Positions 1 through 34,062 of a stretch of 64,000 nucleotides of DNA are shown here, piece by piece. The position numbers and the translations under genes are program-made. Under the pieces are notes generated by a model. The model was not told where the DNA came from, searched no databases, and saw nothing but the letters and a program-made list of their open reading frames with translations. The DNA is from an uncultured virus (IMG/VR IMGVR_UViG_3300042564_005465) (Duplodnaviria; Heunggongvirae; Uroviricota; Caudoviricetes), in the IMG/VR virus record IMGVR_UViG_3300042564_005465; one strand, given 5' to 3'. Every line of letters starts with the position of its first letter. Within the stretch, counting starts at the first letter, position 1.

Positions 1-255
1 GCACCCACTTCAGTTGGTGGTAGTTTCTCGTGCAGCGACCAGCAGCTCACCACACTTGAAGGTGCACCCACTTCAGTTGGTGGTGATTTCTTGTGCCACA
101 ACAACCAGCTCACCACACTTGAAGGTGCACCCACTTCAGTTGGTGGTAGTTTATTGTGCCACATCAACCAGCTTACCACACTTGAAGGTGCACCCACTTC
201 AGTTGGTGGTGATTTCTGGTGCTACACCAACCAGCTCACTACACTTAAAGGAATG
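1..255 (+). repeat. 63-bp coding tandem repeat (about 4 units visible)
   Basis: GCACCCACTTCAGTTGGTGGT at 1, 64, 127, 190. Confidence 0.95.
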
Positions 256-471
256 CCAACTGTACCTGGAATCTTACATCTCTCCTATAGCCCCACTTTG
301 CCACTGCTTCGTTGTTTGCTCGCAAAAGAGATTCAACTGTATCCTGAGAATGGGAAGCACAAAACAGCTGAAGAAATTCTCAATCGATACGCAGGGCAAG
401 GCAAACGAGCCCTATTTGATTGCCAAAAAGAATTGGAAGATGAAGGTTTTGAAGGGAATGCCAGATGGTAA
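1..471 (+). CDS. LRR-like repeat protein, 5'-truncated by window edge (family with conserved tail YAGQGKRALFDCQKELEDxGFEGNARW)
   Basis: Frame 1 is open from base 1; 21-aa repeats xxNQLTTLEGAPTSVGGxFxC; tail shared with six other ORFs in the window. Confidence 0.85.
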   Translation, partial: APTSVGGSFSCSDQQLTTLEGAPTSVGGDFLCHNNQLTTLEGAPTSVGGSLLCHINQLTTLEGAPTSVGGDFWCYTNQLTTLKGMPTVPGILHLSYSPTLPLLRCLLAKEIQLYPENGKHKTAEEILNRYAGQGKRALFDCQKELEDEGFEGNARW

Positions 472-1136
472 TCAAAAAAGAAGTAATGGCTTTGTTGAAA
501 GCTAATTTCAAAACAACTGGTTCAATAACCATTGACGATAAGGGATTGGTTAGTTGTACAGGTATGGTAACTCCTAAAAAGAAGTTGAAGAGATTGCCTG
601 TTGCTTTTGATAAGGTTGGTGGTAATTTCTGGTGCCACAACAACCAGCTCACTACACTTGAAGGTGCACCCACTTCAGTTGGTGGTAATTTCTGGTGCGA
701 CAACAACCAGCTCACTACACTTGAAGGTGCACCCACTTCAGTTGGTGGTAGTTTCTTGTGCTACAGCAACCAGCTCACCACACTTGAAGGTGCACCCACT
801 TCAGTTGGTGGTGATTTCTACTGCGACAACAACCAGCTCACCACACTTGAAGGTGCACCCACTTCAGTTGGTGGTAATTTCTGGTGCAAAAAAAACCAGC
901 TCACCGCACTTGAAGGCTTGCCAACCATACCTGGAATCTTACATCTCTCCTATAGCTCCACTTTGCCACTGCTTCGTTGTTTGCTCGCAAAAGAGATTCA
1001 ACTGTATCCTGAGAATGGGAAGCACAAAACAGCTGAAAGCATTTTGAACAAATATGCTGGACAAGGCAAACGAGCAATGTTTGATTGCCAAAAAGAATTG
1101 GAAGATGCAGGATTTGAAGGAAATGCAAAATGGTAA
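465..1136 (+). CDS. LRR-like repeat protein, same family
   Basis: Five 21-aa repeats, LPLLR motif and conserved tail; start overlaps the previous stop (ATGGTAA). Confidence 0.9.
   Translation: MVIKKEVMALLKANFKTTGSITIDDKGLVSCTGMVTPKKKLKRLPVAFDKVGGNFWCHNNQLTTLEGAPTSVGGNFWCDNNQLTTLEGAPTSVGGSFLCYSNQLTTLEGAPTSVGGDFYCDNNQLTTLEGAPTSVGGNFWCKKNQLTALEGLPTIPGILHLSYSSTLPLLRCLLAKEIQLYPENGKHKTAESILNKYAGQGKRAMFDCQKELEDAGFEGNAKW
615..915 (+). repeat. 63-bp coding tandem repeat (about 5 units)
   Basis: GCACCCACTTCAGTTGGTGGT at 666, 729, 792, 855. Confidence 0.95.
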
Positions 1137-1188
1137 TTTGTGCACTGCAACAATTTCCTGTTAAATAGCCAAAAACAGGAGAACTATT

Positions 1189-1341
1189 ATGTTTTTGGAA
1201 AAAATTCGTCAATGGTGGCACTATTATTGCATGACCAATGAGGAACGCTATCTGAGTGAAGCTGTTGATGTTGTTGACTTTGAGTGCCGATTGAAAAGGG
1301 TTGAAACTCAACGTCATCAAAAAATTCACATGCCTATTTGA
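1189..1341 (+). CDS. Small 50-aa protein, DUF3563-like
   Basis: TAAATA, then AGGAG RBS; MFLEKIRQWW...EERYLSEAVDVVDFECRLKR; below the ORF-track size cutoff. Confidence 0.55.
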   Translation: MFLEKIRQWWHYYCMTNEERYLSEAVDVVDFECRLKRVETQRHQKIHMPI

Positions 1342-1409
1342 AAGGGTTTGACGTAACCTCTGCCCTCAGCTAGAATTTGCTACAACAAAACGCTGATAGG
1401 GACAACGAG

Positions 1410-1979
1410 ATGAAATTGAATCTGCGCAAGGCTGCTGCTGTGCAAAACAGCATTCGAGCTGCTATCAGTGAGCGTCAATCACAGCTTACTGGCGAACTAA
1501 CTATGGAACTTTGGTCAGTAAATGATGAGATGCTGGCAATTGCTCGTGGTGCGCAACTGCGTGCAATTGATGAGATTGATCGTCTTGAGTCAACACTCGC
1601 AAACATCCGAGAGCAAGTGGGTGCAGCCAATGTAAAGTGCAGTGTTAGTAAACTGCTATGTGAGCAGGCTGTAGTAGCTGCTCAGATTTCGCGGTTCTCC
1701 CGGCTGGTGAAGAGCACTCCTGTTCCCAGCAGCACACACCTGGCAGAGCGTGCCAAAAGCATCTCGGTTGCCAATGAGAAAAGCTCTTACCGAATCACCG
1801 AAAGCTTTTCTGTTGGTGTGTTCAGCCTTACCGACATTGAGAAGTTCAACACTCAGCTGGTAACACTGCGTCGCAGGCAGACAGCTATTGGTGAAGAGCT
1901 TATCACTGCTAACATCTCTACTGAAATCAATATTCGAGACCAAGACTGGACATGGCTTGAGTCTCTAGGTATTGTGTAG
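1410..1979 (+). CDS. Coiled-coil protein, weakly DIP1984/septicolysin-like
   Basis: MKLNLRKA start; heptad-rich helices; C-terminal IGEELITANISTEI; promoter TTGACG-N17-TAGAAT upstream. Confidence 0.6.
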   Translation: MKLNLRKAAAVQNSIRAAISERQSQLTGELTMELWSVNDEMLAIARGAQLRAIDEIDRLESTLANIREQVGAANVKCSVSKLLCEQAVVAAQISRFSRLVKSTPVPSSTHLAERAKSISVANEKSSYRITESFSVGVFSLTDIEKFNTQLVTLRRRQTAIGEELITANISTEINIRDQDWTWLESLGIV

Positions 1980-1999
1980 GCCCACAAAGCCTGCACAAT

Positions 2000-2212
2000 C
2001 AGGTCACAAGTGAAGGAAAAAACAAGACATTATCATTGACAGGATGGATAACATCCTCCAGGGCTAAACCCATTGCTCAGCACGTTTTCGGTATGCCTCA
2101 CGGGCTCCATTTGTTTTTTGTTGTGCTGCTATATTGGGATTGTGTTTTGCAGTTTGTTGGTTGTCGTTTGTTCTTTGTTAGAGTCTCTGTTTGATCTTGA
2201 GTTTGTGACCTG
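2000..2212 (+). ncRNA. Candidate structured RNA closed by a 10-bp helix, with a periodic TTG tract
   Basis: CAGGTCACAA (2000-2009) pairs with TTGTGACCTG (2203-2212); inner hairpin AGGATG/CATCCT; TTG every 7 nt from 2142 to 2177. Confidence 0.55.
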
Positions 2213-2236
2213 TTTCTTCTTTTGAAAGACATTCTT

Positions 2237-3061
2237 ATGAAATTTGCCCTTATCTCTGACATCCACATTGACCACAGTGGGTGGGATTGGCAACTTCTTG
2301 ACAAAGTTGACTCTGCTACTCCACTTGTGGTGTGTGGCGACATTGAAAATGATGTTCGCGCTGGAAGCCGGTGGCTGCGCGAAGCTGGGCAGCGATTTGA
2401 ACATGTGATTTGGGTGGCCGGCAACCATTGCATGTACAACCTAGGATTTCATTCCACTCGACTGAGTGACCCAGAGTTTGACGCTCAGTATCCCTATCCG
2501 CGCACTGTTGAGGAAATCTACGACCACTACAGCCGATATAGCAAGGCACATAATGTCTCCTTTCTGCATAGAGGCAGTGTTGTGGTCAACGGTGTGAAGT
2601 TTGTGGGTGCTACTGGTTGGCATGATTTCCAAGCTGGTAGCCCATTTGACTTTGAGCAGCAATCCTCAGCTTACCTACATTACATGAATGATGCTCGCTA
2701 TATCCAGTGGGGCACAGAATACAAGGTGCAAGCAATTGTAGACTCTGCAAAAGCGGATGCTGAGTATATCCAAAACGCTGTAACCAACTCAGCACACCAT
2801 GTGGTGGTAATGACGCATCATGCACCTAATCGAGTGCTGCTGAAGTATAATCCAAACCCCAGGTGGGTTATGCTAAATGGCAGTTATGCAAACACACTCT
2901 TGGAACCCATCACCAACTCAAACATTCGCGCTTGGTGCTTTGGTCACACACATGACCGTCAAGACCGAGTGCTAAATGGTGTTCGCTACATCAACAATGC
3001 TCGAGGCTATCCTGGTGAAAACCCTGGTTGGACTCCAGTGGAAATTGAAATTGATATTTGA
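2237..3061 (+). CDS. Calcineurin-like metallophosphoesterase
   Basis: SDIH, GD, GNH, THH and GHTH motifs. Confidence 0.9.
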   Translation: MKFALISDIHIDHSGWDWQLLDKVDSATPLVVCGDIENDVRAGSRWLREAGQRFEHVIWVAGNHCMYNLGFHSTRLSDPEFDAQYPYPRTVEEIYDHYSRYSKAHNVSFLHRGSVVVNGVKFVGATGWHDFQAGSPFDFEQQSSAYLHYMNDARYIQWGTEYKVQAIVDSAKADAEYIQNAVTNSAHHVVVMTHHAPNRVLLKYNPNPRWVMLNGSYANTLLEPITNSNIRAWCFGHTHDRQDRVLNGVRYINNARGYPGENPGWTPVEIEIDI

Positions 3062-3094
3062 CACAACACTATTTGTCATCTATCCTTAAAAGGA

Positions 3095-3301
3095 AGAATG
3101 CTTACAGCAAAGTTTATGCAATTGGAAAAGTGCAAAAACAGCATTCTGTTTACGGGCTTGAGGATTTGGTTCAGCAAACCTTTGGATAACGTTTTGTTTA
3201 TCAAAACCAGTGGTTCAATTCCACATCCAAATCCGTGCCCACCACAAAGGATCTCTTCCGCAAACTTAAAATCGCATCATGTGTGATACAAAGGAGATCC
3301 T
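3095..3301 (+). ncRNA. Array of three stem-loop RNAs with T[AT]C[AC]GCAA motif (Y-RNA-like candidate)
   Basis: 8-bp closing stems AGAATGCT/AGCATTCT, GGATTTGG/CCAAATCC, AGGATCTC/GAGATCCT; T-arm GTGG-TTCAATT-CCAC in unit 2; promoter at 3058. Confidence 0.65.
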
Positions 3302-3571
3302 GTGACTACTCAAATAAATGCACAATACATCAGCTATCAAACATATCGTTGGTTAAGCCCCTTGATCTACGAGATCATTGCAGAAGTCTCGGCTCAGAAC
3401 ATTGATATAGCTCAAGACGTAGTAAATGACAAGTTTGTAATCTTTTTTGAAGTAGAGAACACTAGATACACGCTGCCAATCTACAATAACCGACTGCAAG
3501 GCTTTCCTCTTGATTTGAAAGATGACAGTTTCCAAGAATTGATTGCTGAAATCAAGCTGCGACATTTTTGA
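3302..3571 (+). CDS. Hypothetical protein
   Basis: 89-aa ORF with AAGGAG RBS. Confidence 0.55.
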   Translation: MTTQINAQYISYQTYRWLSPLIYEIIAEVSAQNIDIAQDVVNDKFVIFFEVENTRYTLPIYNNRLQGFPLDLKDDSFQELIAEIKLRHF

Positions 3572-3596
3572 CACAACCCTGTTTACAGGGTATAGT
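3568..3596 (+). promoter_or_regulatory. Sigma70-type promoter with palindromic spacer
   Basis: TTGACA-N17-TATAGT containing ACCCTGT-TT-ACAGGGT. Confidence 0.65.
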
Positions 3597-3626
3597 TCAC
3601 TACACATATGCATGAGGAAATTTTGC

Positions 3627-5036
3627 ATGAGCTTTGCAGCAGCCGTTGATCTCACCCACTCAGAAACAGCCAATGGCATGCCCACCAATGCAACAACCAA
3701 CAATCCTGTATTGGATCTCTTTGCTGTCATCGGCAGCAGTCGAGGCAAAAATCTGTCTACTCAATTTTCTGCTGCATTCAGTTGTGATACACTGCTGACA
3801 GTGAAAACCCTGTTTTGGGCACGTGATGCACGCGGTGGTGCTGGTGAACGCGATATTTTCCGGAAATTGTTCAACCAACTGTGTGAGAAGGATCCAGAGC
3901 TGGCAATTCGCTTGCTCACATTGATCCCTGAGTTTGGTAGATATGACGACTTACTCAGTATTGCTCATCCACTAGTGCAACAGGTTGCACTAGCATATTA
4001 TGCTGATGAGCTGCACAAAGGCAAGGCACTAGCAGCCAAATATGCCCCGCGCCAAGGACAACTAGCCAATCGCTTGCGCAAACTCTTGGGAATCAAAACT
4101 CCCAAAGAATATCGCCAGTTAGTGGTTAACCAATGTCACACAGTGGAACAACAGATGTGTGCGCGACAATGGCACAACATTCACTATAGCCAATTGCCTT
4201 CTGTAGCCAGTGCTCGCTATCAAAAGGCTTTTTTGAAAAATGATCCAGCACGCTACAACCTTTGGAAAGAGGGTTTGAAAACTGGTGTTGCCCGTGTGAA
4301 CAGCTCCGTTCTCTTTCCCTACGATGTGTTGAAGAGCATGCGTAATGGCGATGCAGAAGTTGCGCAAGCTCAATGGGACAGCCTACCAAATCTGTTGGGT
4401 GAGGACAACATCCTTCCAATGGTTGACACCTCTGGTAGCATGAGTAGTGCTGTTGGCGGCAACTCCAAACTCTCCTGTATGGAGGTGGCCTTGAGTTTGG
4501 GGCTCTATGTAAGTGACAAACAACAGGGCGCTTTCAAAGACTTGCTGTTGACCTTTTCAGGTGATAGTCGAATTGAGCGACTGCAAGGCAGCTTGACGGA
4601 GAAGGTGCGCCAAATCAGCACACTGCATTGGGGCATGAACACCAGCATTGAACGAGCTTTCCGTGAGATCTTGCGTGTGGCTGTGATGGGTAATGTGCCC
4701 AACAGTGAAATGCCCAAGGTGGTGCTGGTGCTGAGTGATCAAGAGTTTGACTCCTCAAGCGATGGTAACAAAATGGCTTGGAACATAGCTCAAGAAACTT
4801 TCCAACGGCACAGCTACTCAACTCCAAAAATTGTTTGGTGGAACCTAAATGCTCGCGCAGGAAATTTTCCCGTAAGGGCACACAGCACAGGGGCTGCTTT
4901 GGTAAGTGGATTCTCTCCCAGCATCTTGAAAAGCATTTTGAAATGCGAGGAGTTTTCGCCGTTGACTGTGATGCTGGAAACGCTGAACAATCCACGCTAT
5001 GATAATGTAGCTGCGGCTGTAGGACACAACTCTTGA
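3627..5036 (+). CDS. DUF2828-type TROVE/Ro-like protein with C-terminal vWA domain
   Basis: RDARGGAGER, EFGRYDDL, AAKYAPR, MIDAS motif DTSGSM, LSDQEFD, WWNL, VSGFSP; start placed at MSFAAA after the promoter and GAGG. Confidence 0.85.
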   Translation: MSFAAAVDLTHSETANGMPTNATTNNPVLDLFAVIGSSRGKNLSTQFSAAFSCDTLLTVKTLFWARDARGGAGERDIFRKLFNQLCEKDPELAIRLLTLIPEFGRYDDLLSIAHPLVQQVALAYYADELHKGKALAAKYAPRQGQLANRLRKLLGIKTPKEYRQLVVNQCHTVEQQMCARQWHNIHYSQLPSVASARYQKAFLKNDPARYNLWKEGLKTGVARVNSSVLFPYDVLKSMRNGDAEVAQAQWDSLPNLLGEDNILPMVDTSGSMSSAVGGNSKLSCMEVALSLGLYVSDKQQGAFKDLLLTFSGDSRIERLQGSLTEKVRQISTLHWGMNTSIERAFREILRVAVMGNVPNSEMPKVVLVLSDQEFDSSSDGNKMAWNIAQETFQRHSYSTPKIVWWNLNARAGNFPVRAHSTGAALVSGFSPSILKSILKCEEFSPLTVMLETLNNPRYDNVAAAVGHNS

Positions 5037-5878
5037 GCACCTTGCCTTACAGCATTTATCAAGGTGATAATGTTGGCATGCTGAAACAGTATGTTCTTGA
5101 CTCCAGCATTGATCTCACTGTCACTAGTCCTCCTTACGACAGCCTCCGAGACTACAAAGGCCACACTTGGGATTTTGATGAGTTGTTGAAGGAACTCAAA
5201 AGAGTAACAAAGCCTGGTGGTATTGTCATGTGGAATGTGGCTGATCAAGTTGTGAATGGCAGTGAAACTGGCACAAGCTTTCGACAAGCTTTGAAATTCA
5301 TAGACAGTGGTTGGCGACTTCATGATACAATGGTTTACGAAAAAGCCAACTTCAGCAATCCCAGCAGCAACCGGTACCACCAATTGGCAGAGTGGATGTT
5401 TGTGTTCAGCCTTGGAAAACCCAAAACCTTCAATCCCATCAAAGACAAACCTACTACAGCATTGAATAATCCTGATCATGCACGCATGGCAACATTTGGT
5501 AAGAACACAGTGCGTAACAAGGATGGTCTCATGCAAGACAGGGGGTCGAGAAAGGACTACTCAGAGTTTGGTATGCGAGGCAATATTTGGCGCATGAAAA
5601 CAGCAGGGCAAGAACGGCCATGCAAGAGCATTTCTCATCCAGCCAAAATGCCCACAGCTATGGCCCATGATCATATCATCAGTTGGAGCAATCCAGGAGA
5701 TGTAATCTTGGACCCATTTGCAGGCAGTGGAACAACTGGTGTAGAGGCATTGAAACTGGGGCGACACTTTGTTGGAACTGAAATAGCCCAAGAATATTTT
5801 GAGATCATGCAGAACAACTTGAATGACTGGGTAAGTTTGAACAATATAATCAATCCTGTTGCATCCAAAGACGAATAA
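5033..5878 (+). CDS. DNA methyltransferase, beta class (N4-C/N6-A)
   Basis: TSPPY precedes HPA and DPFAGSGTT. Confidence 0.92.
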   Translation: MSTLPYSIYQGDNVGMLKQYVLDSSIDLTVTSPPYDSLRDYKGHTWDFDELLKELKRVTKPGGIVMWNVADQVVNGSETGTSFRQALKFIDSGWRLHDTMVYEKANFSNPSSNRYHQLAEWMFVFSLGKPKTFNPIKDKPTTALNNPDHARMATFGKNTVRNKDGLMQDRGSRKDYSEFGMRGNIWRMKTAGQERPCKSISHPAKMPTAMAHDHIISWSNPGDVILDPFAGSGTTGVEALKLGRHFVGTEIAQEYFEIMQNNLNDWVSLNNIINPVASKDE

Positions 5879-5892
5879 CAGTAAATATAACA

Positions 5893-5949
5893 TGGAGTTG
5901 ACTCAAAAGTAACTCCCTAAACATCTTGCTTTAAGAAGGAGATAACAAA
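5893..5949 (+). promoter_or_regulatory. ROSE-like RNA thermometer candidate in the dnaK leader
   Basis: Hairpin GGAGTT/AACTCC, then TCTTGCTT-TAAG-AAGGAGA sequestering the SD with a UUGCU motif. Confidence 0.45.
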
Positions 5950-7785
5950 ATGACTATCATTGCGATAGATCTTGGAACTACGAATTCATGCGTGGCCATT
6001 ATGGAAAATGGCACAGCTCGCGTAATTGAAAACGCAGAAGGTGCACGCACAACCCCCAGCATTGTGGCTTGGACTGACAAGGAACAACTGGTTGGACAAG
6101 CTGCCAAACGACAGGCTGTTACAAATCCCGAAAACACAGTTTTTGAAAGCAAGCGCCTGATTGGTCGGCGCTTTGCGGATCCATCAGTCGCAGCAGATAT
6201 GAAAACACTACCTTACAAAATTGTCAAGGCTGACAATGGCGATGCATGGGTAGAAACTCGAGGTCAGGCTCGCAGTCCAGCTGAGATTGGCGCTCAGGTG
6301 CTGTTGAAGATGAAAGAAACGGCAGAAACCTATCTGGGGAAAAAAGTCTCCCAAGCTGTTCTGACAGTACCTGCATATTTTGATGATGCACAACGACAGG
6401 CAACAAAAGATGCTGGCCGCATTGCTGGACTTGAAGTGATGCGTATCATAAATGAACCCACAGCAGCAGCTCTAGCTTTCAGCACTGACAAAGGTGGTGA
6501 TGGCAAGGTAATTGTTGTGGATTCAGGCGGTGGCACACATGACGTCAGTGTACTAGATATTGGTAGTGGTGTTGTAGAGGTGCTCAGCACCAATGGTGAT
6601 ACACATCTTGGTGGTGCGGATTTTGATGCCCGAGTAACAGACTATCTTGCTCAAGAGTTCTTGCGTGACCAAGGGCTAGATCTCCGGAAGGACAAAATGG
6701 CTGTGCAACGTTTGCGTGAAGCCGCAGAGCGTGCAAAGATTGAACTCAGCAGCACTAGTGAAACTGAAGTCAACTTGCCTTATATCACAGCTGACTCTTC
6801 TGGTCCCAAACATCTGTTGGTGAAGCTCTCTCGTGCAAAGTTCGAAGAGCTGACCTCTGATCTTGTGAAGCGCATCATAGCCCCGTGCCAGGCTGCACTT
6901 AAGGATGCATCAATCAACAAAAATGAGATAAAAGAGATTATCCTCGTTGGTGGCACCACACGTATTCCAGCAGTGCGCCAAGCCATCCGAGACTTCTTTG
7001 GCAAGGAGCCCAACCACTCTGTAAATCCAGATGAGGCTGTGGCCATTGGTGCGGCTGTGCAGGCTGGTGTCTTGCAAGGTGATGTGAAGGATGTGCTGCT
7101 GCTGGATGTGACTCCACTTAGCCTAGGCATTGAGACAATGGGAGGTGTGTTCACCAAACTCATCGAAAAGAACACCACGATCCCAACCAAAAAGGAACAA
7201 GTTTTCAGTACTGCTGAAGACAACCAGCAGGCAGTTACTATCAAAGTGTTCCAAGGTGAGAGAAGTATGGCGCGAGATAATAAATCGCTAGGTCAATTTG
7301 ACCTCAAAGACATTCCACCAGCACCGCGCGGCGGCCCCCAGATCGCCGTAGCATTTGATATTGATGCGAATGGCATTGTCACTGTCAGTGCACAAGACAA
7401 GGGCACTGGCAAAACTCAACAAATCTCAATCCAAGCCAATGGTGGACTGTCAGAGGCTGAGATTTTAGAAATGATCCGTCAAGCTGAAGAAAACGAAGCA
7501 GCAGACCAGGAGCGTCGGCGCGTTGCAGACGCACGCAACAATGCTGATGGCGTTATCGCTTCAGTAGAGCGGGTGCTTAAGGAAAATGTCGACAAAATCT
7601 CTGAAAGACTTCGTGCAGAAGCTGAACCCCAGTTAGCTACGTTGCGTCATGTATTAGACGGAGAGGATGTTGAAATCATTGAGAAAGAAACTACAAAACT
7701 TAGTGAAATCTCCATGAAGCTGGGTGAGGAAATCTACAAAAATACACAGGCTGAAACCTCAGCTGAACCCACCCAAAACTCTTGA
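5950..7785 (+). CDS. dnaK: Hsp70 chaperone DnaK
   Basis: [44 protein letters not shown]. Confidence 0.98.
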
Positions 7786-18381: not shown

Positions 18382-19628
18382 CCACAAACATCAAAGCTCT
18401 ACATTATTGTAGTTTTTGTGGAAAAAACCAAACTCAAGTAAAAACACTCATTGCAGGTAGTAATACATTTATTTGCAGTGAATGTATTACCTTGTGTATG
18501 GAAATTATCAAACCACAAGACGAACAAAATGTACACATCATTCCCAAAGAATTAACGCCTCCCAAAATTGTTGAGTATTTGGATCAACATGTGATTGGGC
18601 AAAAAAATGCCAAAAAGTCATTGGCTGTGGCAATTTACAACCACTTGAAGCGTGTCAACAATCCAGTTGTGGATGGTGTCAGTATTGACAAAAGCAACAT
18701 TATGATGATTGGCAACAGTGGTGTTGGCAAAACTCATATGGTCAAAACCCTAGCCAAAATCCTGGAAGTGCCATTTGCTGTGGTTGATGCCACCAGCCTA
18801 AGCCAAACAGGATATGTGGGATTAGACCCAGAGGAGTGCCTTGCACGTCTATACCAGGCTGCTGAGAACAATATGGAATTGGCAGAAAAAGGCATTGTTT
18901 TCATTGATGAAATTGACAAGATAGGGCGCAAAGGAGAGAACGTAAGCACTACTAGAGATGTCAGTGGCGAAGGTGTCCAACAAGCTCTTTTGAAAATTAT
19001 TGAAGGCAGCGATGTGAAATTCAGTCCCATGGGCGGCCGCAAGAACCCCAACGGTGAGTTTGTTACTATGAACACACAGAATGTGTTGTTTATCGTTGGT
19101 GGTGCATTTGAAGGACTTGACAAAATCATTGAGGCACGTTTGGATGAAAAAACCAGTGGTATTGGATTTTTAAGTGCTACTAAAGAACAGCACAGCCCAG
19201 ATAAGACCCAGCGTTTGATGAGTCAAGTAACAACGGAAGATCTCATATCATTTGGTATGATTCCTGAACTTTGTGGGCGCATACCTGTTATCTTGAGTTT
19301 TGACGATCTTGATCATGATACATTGAAAAAGATTTTAGTGGAACCAAAAAACAGCATTGTTAAACAATTTCAAAAACTGTTCCAACTAGATGGCATCAGT
19401 TTGGAATTTGAAGATGATGCAGTGGATGAAGTTGCCAAGCAGGTGCTGACCAAAAAAACTGGCGCCCGAGGGTTGCGTGCTGTAATTGAACGGGTGTTGA
19501 TGGAAAGCCAATTTCAAATCACCTCCTTGCGCGATCAAGGAGTCACTGACTTAACAGTCACGCTGGATAATGTTCAAAACCTCACTCCCTTGAAACAAGT
19601 GTTGACTGATGAACACTCCCAGCTATAA
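18378..19628 (+). CDS. clpX: ATP-dependent Clp protease ATP-binding subunit
   Basis: CSFCGK zinc finger, GVGKT, IDEIDK, RDVSGEGVQQALLK, IGF loop, GARGLR. Confidence 0.97.
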   Translation: MTTNIKALHYCSFCGKNQTQVKTLIAGSNTFICSECITLCMEIIKPQDEQNVHIIPKELTPPKIVEYLDQHVIGQKNAKKSLAVAIYNHLKRVNNPVVDGVSIDKSNIMMIGNSGVGKTHMVKTLAKILEVPFAVVDATSLSQTGYVGLDPEECLARLYQAAENNMELAEKGIVFIDEIDKIGRKGENVSTTRDVSGEGVQQALLKIIEGSDVKFSPMGGRKNPNGEFVTMNTQNVLFIVGGAFEGLDKIIEARLDEKTSGIGFLSATKEQHSPDKTQRLMSQVTTEDLISFGMIPELCGRIPVILSFDDLDHDTLKKILVEPKNSIVKQFQKLFQLDGISLEFEDDAVDEVAKQVLTKKTGARGLRAVIERVLMESQFQITSLRDQGVTDLTVTLDNVQNLTPLKQVLTDEHSQL

Positions 19629-20223
19629 TCAGCGAGTAAACAGAAAGGACCGAGACAACTCTATGAAAGAACCTGCCATGCTGGCCAACGACCGCATCCG
19701 TGCGCCTGAGGTAAGGCTGATCGACGCTGAAGGAACAAATGTTGGTGTTGTGAAAACCAAAGATGCGTTGTTTCAAGCACAGCGAGCTGGACTTGATCTG
19801 GTGGTAATCAATCAACAATCTACACCAATGGTGGTGAAGATTTTGGACCTAAACAAGCATCTCTATGCACTGAAACTTGCTGCCAAAGAGCGTGCTAAAA
19901 AGAGTCGCGAAAGCGAGGTTCAAATGAAAGAAATTCAACTTCGCCCTGTGACTGATAGTCACGATATCAATGTCAAAGCCACTAAGGCACGTGATTTTCT
20001 AGCAGACAATTGCCGAGTCAAAGTTGTTATCAAGTTCCGTGGCAGAGAAATGAGTTTCACAAAACTGGGGTTTGGGGTAATTGATCAGTTTGTAAGCCTT
20101 GTGGGCAATTTCAAATATGAAAAAGAACCCAGCATGCAAGGTAATAGCATTACTGCTATCTTGGTTGCCAACAAACAGATACCAGCATCAACACCAGCAC
20201 CAAAAGACGCAACAACCCCTTAA
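19609..20223 (+). CDS. infC: Translation initiation factor IF-3
   Basis: NDRIRAPEVRLID...GLDLV...KEIQLRP...KVVIKFRGRE; start could be 19663. Confidence 0.95.
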   Translation: MNTPSYNQRVNRKDRDNSMKEPAMLANDRIRAPEVRLIDAEGTNVGVVKTKDALFQAQRAGLDLVVINQQSTPMVVKILDLNKHLYALKLAAKERAKKSRESEVQMKEIQLRPVTDSHDINVKATKARDFLADNCRVKVVIKFRGREMSFTKLGFGVIDQFVSLVGNFKYEKEPSMQGNSITAILVANKQIPASTPAPKDATTP

Positions 20224-31518: not shown

Positions 31519-31699
31519 CCTTGTGCTATAGTGCGGGGGTAACGGAGTACACGGCAATGAGCTTGGTTTGGGGCCTGTTTTTGGTGTACTTGTTTTGTTG
31601 GATGTTCCGTTTGGACTTCCCACTGGTGATGATGGCTCTGTGGAGCAGCAATCAAACCCTGCCTCGTCTCAACACCCGCAAGCTCAAGGAAATCTGGAA

Positions 31700-32854
31700 G
31701 TGAATCCAGCTGCACCCCTAACAACTCCTGCACTGCTGGAACTGCGTGATGCGTTCCAGCTGGCGGGGTTTGGCCTCAGGCTGGTTGGTGGTTGCGTAAG
31801 AGACGCACTGCTGGGCTACGTTCCAAACGACATTGACCTGCACACTGATGCTACTCCGGAAGAGGCCACTGCCATCTACGAGAGGCTGAAACTACGCTGG
31901 ATCCCCACTGGCATGGATCATGGCACAGTAACCGTGGTGCTGAACGATGTCACGTATGAGATCACCAGCCTGAGGGAGGATGTCAGCACAGACGGTCGAC
32001 GTGCTGTGGTGCGCTACACCCGAGATTGGGCGGTGGACGCTGCCAGGCGGGACTTCACCATCAACAGTATGAGCATGACGCTGGATGGCGAGCTGTTTGA
32101 CATCTTCGGCGGTGCCCGGGACCTGCGTGAGGGCAGGGTGCGGTTTGTGGGCTACCCAGACACTCGCATCCAGGAGGACTATCTGCGCATCCTGCGTTGG
32201 TATAGGTTCACTGCACGCTTTGGCAAGGAGTATGACGCTGATGCGCTGGCTGCTGTGAGACGGCATCGCGCGGGTCTGAGCACAATCAGTGTAGAGAGGA
32301 TCTGGAGCGAGATCAAACAGATCATCACGGGCCCCAAGGGGGTAAGCACGGTTGATGACATGTGGCGTGCGCAGCTTATGGCTGGCTTTGCTGGCTTTCC
32401 TCGTGGTGCACCGTGGTATGGGCACCCCCAGGTCCCTCCTGTGCCCGATACCACCAACCCAGTCACACTGATGGTGTACATGTGGCGTGGAGAGGTACCA
32501 GGTGTGCTGAAACACTGGAAGGCCAGCAGGGAGGAGATTGATCTGGCCCAGTATCTCGCCCACCCCGATCGGGACTGGAAGGGGAAAAATCCCTTCCGTG
32601 AGATGGCCGTGCATGGCGTCTCCCGGGAGTGGGCACGAGAGCTGGCTGCTCTCCAGAACATGGATGTGTTTGAGAGGGCTGTGCTGGACACTTGGGAGGT
32701 GCCTGAGTTTCCAGTCACTGGTTACGATCTCATCCAGATGGGCATGCGGCCAGGCCCTGATTATGGCGTGACTCTGGACCGGCTGAGGAATCTGTGGGCT
32801 GACAGTGGCTACACCTTTACCAAAGAGCAACTGCTGGCCCACATTCAGGTCTAG
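31700..32854 (+). CDS. cca: Class II tRNA nucleotidyltransferase (CCA-adding/poly(A) polymerase family)
   Basis: VGGCVRD, DID, RRDFTINSM, EDYLRILR, ERIWSE; GTG start at 31700 inferred. Confidence 0.93.
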   Translation: MNPAAPLTTPALLELRDAFQLAGFGLRLVGGCVRDALLGYVPNDIDLHTDATPEEATAIYERLKLRWIPTGMDHGTVTVVLNDVTYEITSLREDVSTDGRRAVVRYTRDWAVDAARRDFTINSMSMTLDGELFDIFGGARDLREGRVRFVGYPDTRIQEDYLRILRWYRFTARFGKEYDADALAAVRRHRAGLSTISVERIWSEIKQIITGPKGVSTVDDMWRAQLMAGFAGFPRGAPWYGHPQVPPVPDTTNPVTLMVYMWRGEVPGVLKHWKASREEIDLAQYLAHPDRDWKGKNPFREMAVHGVSREWARELAALQNMDVFERAVLDTWEVPEFPVTGYDLIQMGMRPGPDYGVTLDRLRNLWADSGYTFTKEQLLAHIQV

Positions 32855-33456: not shown

Positions 33457-34062
33457 CTAGGTGTGTAGTGTTTGCGATAGCCAATTACGGACCTGTCTTC
33501 CCACCGTACTGATTTGGATCTCAGCTTGTGTGCCCCAATTCTCCACTTCCCAGTATGCGTCCTGGAATAGATTTTTGTAGTTGGCGCGGTTATTTTCAAT
33601 TTTTTGCCAAGTATCCTTAAGGTAGTCAAAATCAACTTTGCGTCCAGTGTGCTTGAATCTTTGTTCTGCATTGGATTGTGCAACTTCAAATGGTGTTCTA
33701 ACCAATATCATAGCAGCGGAATAGTTGTAAGACAAAAATTGTTGACGTTTTTGTTGATAATCTTGAAAGTTTCGTCCTGTGCCATCTATAATCATGCCCA
33801 ATCCCTGGCGAAGCCAACTGAGACGGAATTTTTCAGCTTGGGCAGACAGGGGGTGCGGTGAAAAATCAATATTTTCTAGATTAGTTTGCGATCGTTGCAT
33901 AAGTTGCGCAAGACTATCAGGATCAACAACTTTCAAAGATCTGCCAAAAATACGAGTTCTAACTGTGGTTTTGCCTGATCCTGGGCTTCCTGCCATGAAC
34001 ACCACTTTGCGGTTGAACTGGTCATGCAGGCCGTCATGCAGGATTAAATCGTAAATTCTCAT
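33457..34062 (-). CDS. Zeta-toxin/AAA_33-like P-loop kinase
   Basis: AGSPGSGKTT, VDPD, IIDGTG, R...GRKV. Confidence 0.85.
   Translation of the reverse strand: MRIYDLILHDGLHDQFNRKVVFMAGSPGSGKTTVRTRIFGRSLKVVDPDSLAQLMQRSQTNLENIDFSPHPLSAQAEKFRLSWLRQGLGMIIDGTGRNFQDYQQKRQQFLSYNYSAAMILVRTPFEVAQSNAEQRFKHTGRKVDFDYLKDTWQKIENNRANYKNLFQDAYWEVENWGTQAEIQISTVGRQVRNWLSQTLHT

What the first reader, a model, noticed from the sequence alone, without database searches (positions are those of the whole stretch)
1410..2212. Coiled-coil gene followed by a stem-closed RNA with exact 7-nt TTG periodicity
Seen: about 20 nt after the stop, a perfect 10-bp helix (2000-2009 with 2203-2212) encloses about 190 nt. Its 3' half is U/G-rich, with TTG ending at 2142, 2149, 2156, 2163, 2170 and 2177 (GGGATTG TGTTTTG CAGTTTG TTGGTTG TCGTTTG TTCTTTG), and also at 2113 and 2120. 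The spacer bases vary, so this is not a microsatellite. Inference: an array of phased sites for an oligomeric ring or filament protein (compare TRAP binding spaced triplets), most plausibly the upstream DIP1984-like coiled-coil protein, forming a ribonucleoprotein or autoregulatory module I do not recognise.
Basis: partly seen in the sequence, partly recalled or inferred. Interest (0 to 1): 0.8.

Follow-up and report, generated by a model that had tools for sequence, protein, structure and literature searches.

The report
Phage UUG-repeat RNA with partner protein
A giant phage carries a small helical protein gene of unknown function followed by a folded RNA of about 240 bases with eight evenly spaced UUG motifs, and the two occur together in many other phages, so they probably form an undescribed RNA-protein particle.

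Summary
Six TTG at exact 7-nt spacing (2140-2177), plus two more in a loop, lie inside a closing helix (2000-2011/2201-2212) just after a 189-aa helical gene on a jumbo-phage contig. The tract belongs to a conserved RNA. Of 79 homologous loci with full flanks, 64 have a sense-strand phased TTG chain near the gene, against 1 of 79 antisense. Helices covary in three clades. Covariance models from two distant clades each rank this RNA first in 30 kb, though weakly. TTG columns are invariant in the close clade while spacers drift. In one phage clade the loop pair and the tract both use 8-nt spacing. The RNA can also lie upstream of the gene or a gene away, so it is not merely a 3' UTR. The protein is a remote DIP1984 (3kdq) fold relative, below family cut-offs, and is modelled as a homodimer. 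Best reading: a trans-acting RNP with about 7-8 protein-binding UUG sites. Binding, transcription and function are not shown. Phage PA5oct has the protein without a detectable RNA. Not in Rfam or the papers searched; earlier notes of this scan describe the same kind of module.

The parts
1348..1376 (+). sigma-70-like promoter (TTGACG-17-TAGAAT, 10 of 12) in front of the gene
   Evidence: consensus scan; 5 sites found in 1100-3700 against 4.1 expected by chance, so position is the only support
1410..1979 (+). 189-aa all-helical coiled-coil protein, remote DIP1984/3kdq-like; conserved R6, K7, Q12, R67, N74, R154/R155, N168
   Evidence: (pLDDT 96.9)
1971..1999 (+). P0 hairpin (1971-1981/1989-1999), overlapping the stop codon and abutting P1
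   Evidence: 2 of 11 pairs change on both sides in the 6-sequence clade alignment
2000..2212 (+). closed RNA body; P1 = 2000-2011/2201-2212
   Evidence: top match of models R1 and R2 in window 1-30000
2014..2198 (+). P2 helices: 2014-2017/2195-2198, 2020-2024/2188-2192, 2025-2028/2183-2186
2041..2057 (+). P3 hairpin (2041-2046/2052-2057)
2069..2138 (+). bipartite P4 helix (2069-2072/2135-2138 and 2078-2083/2123-2128); its loop holds a small hairpin (about 2095-2105) and the first two UUG
   Evidence: comparative structure (3 of 10 P4 pairs change on both sides); not the single-sequence MFE
2111..2120 (+). two UUG motifs 7 nt apart in the P4 loop
   Evidence: a TTG pair 7 or 8 nt apart within 60 nt before the tract in 25 of 31 hand-picked RNAs
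2140..2177 (+). six UUG motifs at 7-nt period with variable 4-nt spacers
   Evidence: (18 of 18 TTG columns invariant, 5 of 20 spacer columns invariant, 6 sequences)

Best explanation
1971-2212 encodes a structured non-coding RNA, made here from the same promoter as the 189-aa gene (inferred). Helices P0-P4 hold out a single-stranded array of about eight UUG(H) motifs: two in the P4 loop and six after P4. The neighbouring protein forms antiparallel coiled-coil dimers (modelled). Its invariant basic and amide residues (R6/K7/N74/R154-155/N168) are inferred to read one UUG each, and the 7-nt spacing is the step between adjacent protein sites. Several dimers (about four, for eight motifs) would assemble on one RNA into a particle of fixed stoichiometry that acts in trans. 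The most likely role, weakly inferred from context, is to keep RNA metabolism or translation running during infection, as a scaffold, decoy or protective particle. Shown: sequence, conservation, covariation, linkage to the gene. Modelled: protein fold and dimer. Inferred: transcription, binding, stoichiometry, role.
For: Linkage: 64 of 79 full-flank loci have a sense TTG chain of 4 or more within 700 nt, against 1 of 79 antisense and 1 of 66 distal flanks. By protein cluster at 50% identity it is 13 of 18 clusters; own-genome background is 1 of 98 windows. No other neighbouring gene family occurs in more than 27 of 96 loci. Covariation: 28 of 46 pairs change on both sides in clade C, 15 of 63 in clade B, 8 of 53 in the own clade; for this measure 0 of 500 shuffles reached the value in each, and slid controls were far lower. 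G-U versus A-C cells were 49:2 in clade B and 31:20 in clade C, favouring + strand RNA. Models from clades whose proteins are 25-29% identical to this one rank 1968-2222 and 1986-2215 first in 30 kb (E about 0.02 and 0.03). TTG is fixed while spacers vary, and the base after TTG is never G (0 of 122). Loop spacing and tract spacing are both 8 in 5 of 5 members of one cultured-phage clade and both 7 in 18 others. Self-association model: score 0.48, best control 0.00; the mark was reached by 20 of 30 solved pairs of one chain and 1 of 23 single chains; runs agree in at least 86% of contacts, partner pLDDT at least 81. That job is unlike the calibration (4 copies, own alignment), and likeness to solved 3kdq may contribute. 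Homologous proteins are made: PA5oct gp180 in virion MS, and fENko-Kae01 ENKO_435 by LC-MS/MS of a >300 kDa lysate fraction. tRNA genes lie within 2.5-4 kb in 22 of 52 loci scanned.
Against: No RNA-protein contact was tested, and no transcript data exist for this locus. The PA5oct homologue (E 3.9e-24) has no RNA beside it, and its genome has no TTG chain by pattern and no convincing R1 match; the protein can therefore exist without a recognisable partner. The motif count is not fixed: 2+6 in 6 of 31 RNAs, 2+5 in the period-8 clade, and fewer perfect units in many. The Kikimora phage uses GTG in place of TTG. The skeleton comparative fold is 17 kcal/mol above the MFE, which pairs part of the tract. 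Cross-clade model scores are only 12.5-13 bits, and R2 with default filters found only 3 of 25 other loci. The 7-to-8 switch is one clade, so one event. The model shows a dimer, not a ring. CBB_382 is absent from the 55 virion proteins of phage CBB. This window has no tRNA gene.
Confidence: 0.6

Rival explanations
1. The RNA is real, but its phased UUG sites bind a different oligomeric protein: a host RNA-binding ring, or a phage protein such as the DUF2828/DUF7788 protein encoded 1.4 kb downstream. The coiled-coil gene is a co-inherited partner with another role.
For: PA5oct has the protein without the RNA. The window encodes a DUF2828/DUF7788 protein, PHROG 850 'RNA-binding protein'.
Against: The DUF2828-like ORF cluster was near the gene in only 3 of 96 loci, all in the own clade. 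The RNA stays within about 700 nt of this gene across distant clades and gene orders.
Confidence: 0.14
2. Cis-acting autoregulation or mRNA stabilisation: the protein binds the array in its own transcript and sets its own level.
For: P0 overlaps the stop codon here. In the upstream-type loci the RNA ends a few bases before the start codon.
Against: The RNA lies downstream, upstream, or one gene away (L016, L045, L065, L068, L018, L027), and in L027 it has its own TTGACA-type promoter, seen by eye. The fold is far more elaborate than an operator needs (inference).
Confidence: 0.1
3. Type III toxin-antitoxin-like pair: the repeat-bearing RNA sequesters several copies of a harmful or anti-defence protein until it is degraded.
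For: One small gene plus a repeat-bearing RNA, often in one operon, is the ToxIN-type layout (recalled knowledge).
Against: No nuclease fold was found. The repeats are 3-nt motifs inside one closed fold, not tandem pseudoknot units. The protein occurs without the RNA in PA5oct.
Confidence: 0.08
4. RNA-only architecture: the UUG repeats make repeated tertiary or inter-RNA contacts, as in GOLLD/ROOL assemblies, and need no protein.
For: Phage RNA-only oligomers exist (PMC12286853, listing and start of abstract only).
Against: Tight linkage to one protein family. No complementary phased CAA array is seen in the RNA, and there is no long complement in the 71-kb genome.
Confidence: 0.05
5. A DNA-level heptamer repeat (STRR-like or binding-site array) that happens to lie here.
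For: Arrays matching TTG(N4)x6 are common in viral contigs for other reasons: only 1 of 130 pattern hits had a family gene in the fetched DNA (50 of the 130 had only short flanks).
Against: Single copy per genome, strand-specific, embedded in covarying helices with G-U pairs, and at a fixed position after P4.
Confidence: 0.03

Closest known systems
DIP1984 / Pfam DUF6847 (PF20935), structure 3kdq, function unknown
   Same: Top fold match in both PDB searches: Foldseek E 8.4e-3, prob 1.0, TM 0.45/0.53; VIA Z 10.1, rmsd 6.5, 144 aligned. Atlas feature hit 0.92 to a cluster with 19% DUF6847 members.
   Different: 189 aa against 152-153; 11-14% identity; no Pfam or NCBIfam family hit. The Z-score is within 1 of unrelated helical hairpins. 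No partner RNA turned up in the papers searched.
TRAP and HutP (oligomeric proteins that read spaced triplet repeats; recalled)
   Same: Single-stranded RNA with a fixed triplet, free spacers and a fixed period.
   Different: Motif UUG at period 7-8 rather than (G/U)AG at about 5. The protein is an all-helical coiled coil. The RNA is a closed, movable gene, not an attenuator leader.
Ro60/Rsr with Y RNA (recalled)
   Same: A protein gene beside a stem-closed small RNA, in RNA-repair or tRNA-rich neighbourhoods. A DUF2828/VWA-like gene lies nearby in this window.
   Different: No Rfam match. No TROVE fold in the partner protein. No tRNA-like domain.
GOLLD / ROOL / OLE RNAs
   Same: Elaborate phage or bacterial ncRNAs, often near tRNA genes.
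   Different: Much shorter (about 240 nt); no Rfam match; tied to one protein family.
Type III toxin-antitoxin (ToxIN; recalled)
   Same: A small gene plus a repeat-bearing RNA.
   Different: No nuclease fold; short motifs instead of tandem RNA units.

Membership tests
DUF6847 / DIP1984 family | Match above the curated cut-off of Pfam PF20935 or an NCBIfam model | tested here: not met
   No hit for the window protein; 1 of 148 relatives hits DUF6847, at E 0.0024; the profile does not find 3kdq by sequence.
DUF6847 / DIP1984 family | 3kdq fold (long helical hairpins with paired N- and C-terminal strands) | tested here: met
   Rank 1 in Foldseek and in VIA-wide, 144 residues aligned, moderate scores.
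TRAP/HutP-type attenuation | Spaced triplet repeats in single-stranded RNA | tested here: met
   UUG, period 7 or 8; single-strandedness is inferred from comparative structure.
TRAP/HutP-type attenuation | Repeats lie in a 5' leader overlapping an antiterminator of a regulated operon | tested here: not met
   Element lies after the stop codon here; its position varies among relatives.
TRAP/HutP-type attenuation | TRAP or HutP protein fold | tested here: inconclusive
   Not listed among fold matches; the model is all-helical.
Y RNA / GOLLD / ROOL / any Rfam family | Match to the Rfam covariance model | tested here: not met
   0 matches at E<=1 in window 1-6000.
Type III toxin-antitoxin | Toxic endoribonuclease neutralised by tandem RNA repeats | not testable with these tools
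   No toxin family hit; toxicity needs an experiment.
Ribonucleoprotein (general) | Transcript exists and binds the protein | not testable with these tools

The most novel reading that the evidence does not exclude
An undescribed class of phage and bacterial ribonucleoprotein in which a folded RNA acts as a ruler. Seven or eight phased UUG sites template the assembly of a fixed number of DIP1984-like coiled-coil dimers, and RNA spacing and protein geometry change together (7 to 8 nt in one clade). The particle serves jumbo phages in protecting RNA or translation, or in countering host defence.
Probability: 0.45. Interest if true: 0.88.

Novelty: categorically new. Interest (0 to 1): 0.74.

Why it matters
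If true, it gives a first function to a widespread orphan protein fold (3kdq, released in 2009 as functionally unknown) and adds a new RNA family and RNP type to jumbo-phage biology. It is directly testable: cultured phages carry it, and natural variants (period 7 or 8, UUG or GUG, protein without RNA) make a ready specificity-swap experiment. Within this scan the module type has been noted before (21 findings carry the word DIP1984), so this locus is a new, distant phage member of a candidate system not found in the papers searched, not a first sighting.

Tried and rejected
Rfam: 0 matches. tblastn of the window protein against annotated phages: none; relatives were reached through P0014 and the GAP32 protein, and L021's protein found none. 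RNA runs: no RNA holder listed, which is no evidence either way. The scan of bacterial genomes gave 1 partial locus, and its genome had no DUF6847 match, so bacterial DIP1984 RNAs were not examined. One plasmid-collection hit (Salipiger, 316 kb) has the same tract by eye. PA5oct ncRNA001-003 as partner: no phased TTG seen. Antisense target in the own genome: longest matches 11-19 nt, chance level. Conserved co-gene: none. A pseudoknot from the P0 loop to the 3' tail is visible by eye in other clades but not in this one. A long 5'-to-tract helix in the L005 MFE is not kept in the window. TRAP, HutP, TROVE and nuclease folds were not listed in the fold searches, which does not exclude them. Literature searches that found no description; term searches in one 2026 preprint found none. 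Not checked: candidate-motif lists outside Rfam, most subscription papers, and bioRxiv supplements (closed), any of which could hold this RNA.

Full report
Observation. The six-fold TTG run at period 7 is unique in the 64-kb window and arose in 1 of 5000 dinucleotide shuffles of its own region, counting any trimer and any period from 4 to 12. The region folds no better than shuffles as a single sequence (z -0.64). It has no Rfam match at E<=1 (window 1-6000).

Setting. The window is the first 64 kb of a 71,398-base virus record estimated at 17% complete, which implies a jumbo phage (inference). It encodes ClpX-, IF3-, poly(A) polymerase/CCA-type and DNA polymerase III alpha-like proteins, a metallophosphoesterase directly after the RNA, and a DUF2828/DUF7788 protein at 3630-5036. 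It has no tRNA genes. A sigma-70-like promoter lies at 1348-1376.

Protein. ORF 1410-1979 (189 aa) has no significant Pfam or NCBIfam hit and a weak PHROG 25230 hit (E 0.007). It has 349 relatives at E<=0.001 among 50%-identity representatives. I aligned 148 sequences: the query, 6 close hits and 141 other rows of the 150 listed, leaving out 8 short, long or partial ones. The model is confident (pLDDT 96.9), and its best PDB match is 3kdq (DIP1984) in two searches, at moderate scores. It is a remote relative, not a member by curated cut-offs. Near-invariant residues are R6, K7, R67, N74 and N168, with basic R154/R155. A four-copy prediction passed the tool's mark: 0.48 against best control 0.00; the mark was reached by 20 of 30 solved pairs of one chain and 1 of 23 single chains; contacts agree at least 86%, pLDDT at least 81. 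The confident interface is between two copies (residues 23-142); R67 is in it, the other conserved residues are not named. The job differs from the calibration, and similarity to 3kdq may contribute.

Linkage. Loci came from metagenome and viral scans (the metagenome scan kept 80 of 103) and six cultured phages. After removing duplicates there were 96; 17 lacked full flanks and were dropped. Of the other 79, 64 have a sense-strand chain of at least 4 TTG (steps of 7 or 8, one skip allowed) within 700 nt of the gene. The same flanks antisense give 1 of 79, and distal flanks 1 of 66. By protein cluster at 50% identity the figure is 13 of 18, or 16 of 18 for chains of at least 3; background in this genome is 1 of 98 windows. 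Among the 15 misses, three are full-length R1 matches (L025, L038, L043) and four belong to the clade C alignment. The rest show a closed stem and a degenerate tract by eye. The RNA lies downstream in most loci, directly upstream in others, and one gene away in at least six. No other neighbouring ORF family exceeds 27 of 96 loci. tRNA genes were found in 22 of 52 loci scanned.

RNA structure. The clades share one plan: a P0 hairpin, often over the stop codon; closing helices P1 and P2; one or two P3 hairpins; a bipartite P4 whose loop carries two TTG; then the tract. Pairs changing on both sides: 28 of 46 in clade C (25 sequences, structure placed by hand from one member), 15 of 63 in clade B (9 sequences, RNAalifold structure), 8 of 53 in the own clade (6 sequences, one partly misaligned). 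For this measure no shuffle reached the observed value, and the slid controls were much lower. The shuffles ignore relatedness, so these are not probabilities. G-U cells outnumber A-C cells 49:2 and 31:20. Models built only from clade B or clade C each rank this RNA first in window 1-30000 over the full model length, at about 13 bits (E about 0.02 and 0.03, rough). Sensitivity across clades is low (3 of 25 loci).

The motif. In the own clade 18 of 18 TTG columns are invariant against 5 of 20 spacer columns. Across 32 distinct tracts the base after TTG is never G (0 of 122) and the other spacer positions are free. In 31 hand-picked RNAs, 25 have a TTG pair before the tract. Six have exactly 2+6 motifs. 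The five enterobacterial jumbo phages have 2+5 with both loop and tract at period 8; they form one clade, so this is one switch. Kikimora uses GTG at period 7. The bare pattern is not diagnostic: 1 of 130 viral hits to TTG(N4)x6 had a family gene in the DNA fetched.

Experimental traces in print. PA5oct gp180 is a homologue, found in virion mass spectrometry with 5 peptides and 39.6% coverage (PMC7318152, passages and one supplement row). It has no adjacent RNA, and none was found in its genome; this counts against an obligatory partnership. The fENko-Kae01 homologue, which has the period-8 RNA, is flagged as identified by LC-MS/MS, but the authors say that sample holds any complex above 300 kDa (PMC11218385, passages). 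The CBB homologue is not among 55 virion proteins (PMC5259590, section 24). So the protein is made, and its location is unsettled.

Mechanism. Fixed triplets, free spacers, a fixed period shared by two separate parts of the RNA, and a bounded count are what a repeated protein site looks like (by analogy with TRAP and HutP, recalled). The one gene that travels with the RNA encodes a self-associating protein with invariant basic residues. I therefore favour a trans-acting RNP in which about four dimers read 7-8 UUG motifs (0.6). Its role is the weakest step: maintenance of RNA or translation, or counter-defence, is suggested only by tRNA-rich neighbourhoods. Rivals are another binding partner (0.14), cis autoregulation (0.10), a type III TA-like pair (0.08), an RNA-only assembly (0.05) and a DNA repeat (0.03).

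Novelty. I found no description in Rfam or in the paper searches. The library lacks most subscription papers, and bioRxiv supplements and non-Rfam motif lists were not seen. PMC12286853, PMC8040213 and PMC10889530 were seen as listings only; 10.64898/2026.09.22.753630 as term-search passages. Earlier AI notes of this scan report DIP1984-like genes with such RNAs in bacteria, archaea and phages.

Noticed in passing
window 1-471 and 465-1136 (+): Two paralogous genes built from 63-nt (21-aa) repeats with weak leucine-rich-repeat-like matches.
   Followed up: no
window 3630-5036 (+): DUF2828/DUF7788 (VWA-like) protein, PHROG 850 'RNA-binding protein', E 3.5e-130; near the coiled-coil gene in only 3 of 96 loci.
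   Followed up: partly
L085-L214 (many, e.g. L087, L097, L129): Abundant degenerate GCTTGNN heptamer arrays in small viral contigs, often several per contig, unrelated to this gene family.
   Followed up: no
L270, L273, L275, L277, L284 (after the gene): Enterobacterial jumbo phages have the RNA with period 8 in both the loop pair and the tract.
   Followed up: yes
L274:3076-3360: Brevundimonas phage Kikimora has GTG in place of TTG at period 7.
   Followed up: partly
L032, L035, L029, L033, L026 (5' end of the RNA): The P0 loop can pair with the 3' tail (pseudoknot) in these clades, seen by eye; not evident in the window's clade.
   Followed up: partly
L282:566-870 (PA5oct ncRNA003) and L280:1501-2064: PA5oct has the protein (virion MS) without an adjacent RNA; a transcribed ncRNA 4 kb upstream lacks phased TTG.
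   Followed up: partly
BFVD hits A0A1V0SA40, A0A5K0UAD2: Structural relatives in giant viruses of eukaryotes (Catovirus, Yasminevirus; E 1e-4 and 8e-4); whether they carry the RNA was not checked.
   Followed up: no
window 1914-1976: Synonymous codons in the last 21 codons are conserved with L005 (16 of 17, against 3-12 of 14-18 internally); the first 21 codons are too (18 of 20), so this is not specific to P0.
   Followed up: partly
window 33460-34062 (-), 31568-32854 (+), 19609-20223 (+): Zeta_toxin/AAA_33-type P-loop kinase, poly(A) polymerase/CCA-type nucleotidyltransferase and IF3 homologues.
   Followed up: no
window 1189-1341 (+): 50-aa ORF with a sub-threshold DUF3563 match (E 5e-4) upstream of the promoter.
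   Followed up: no
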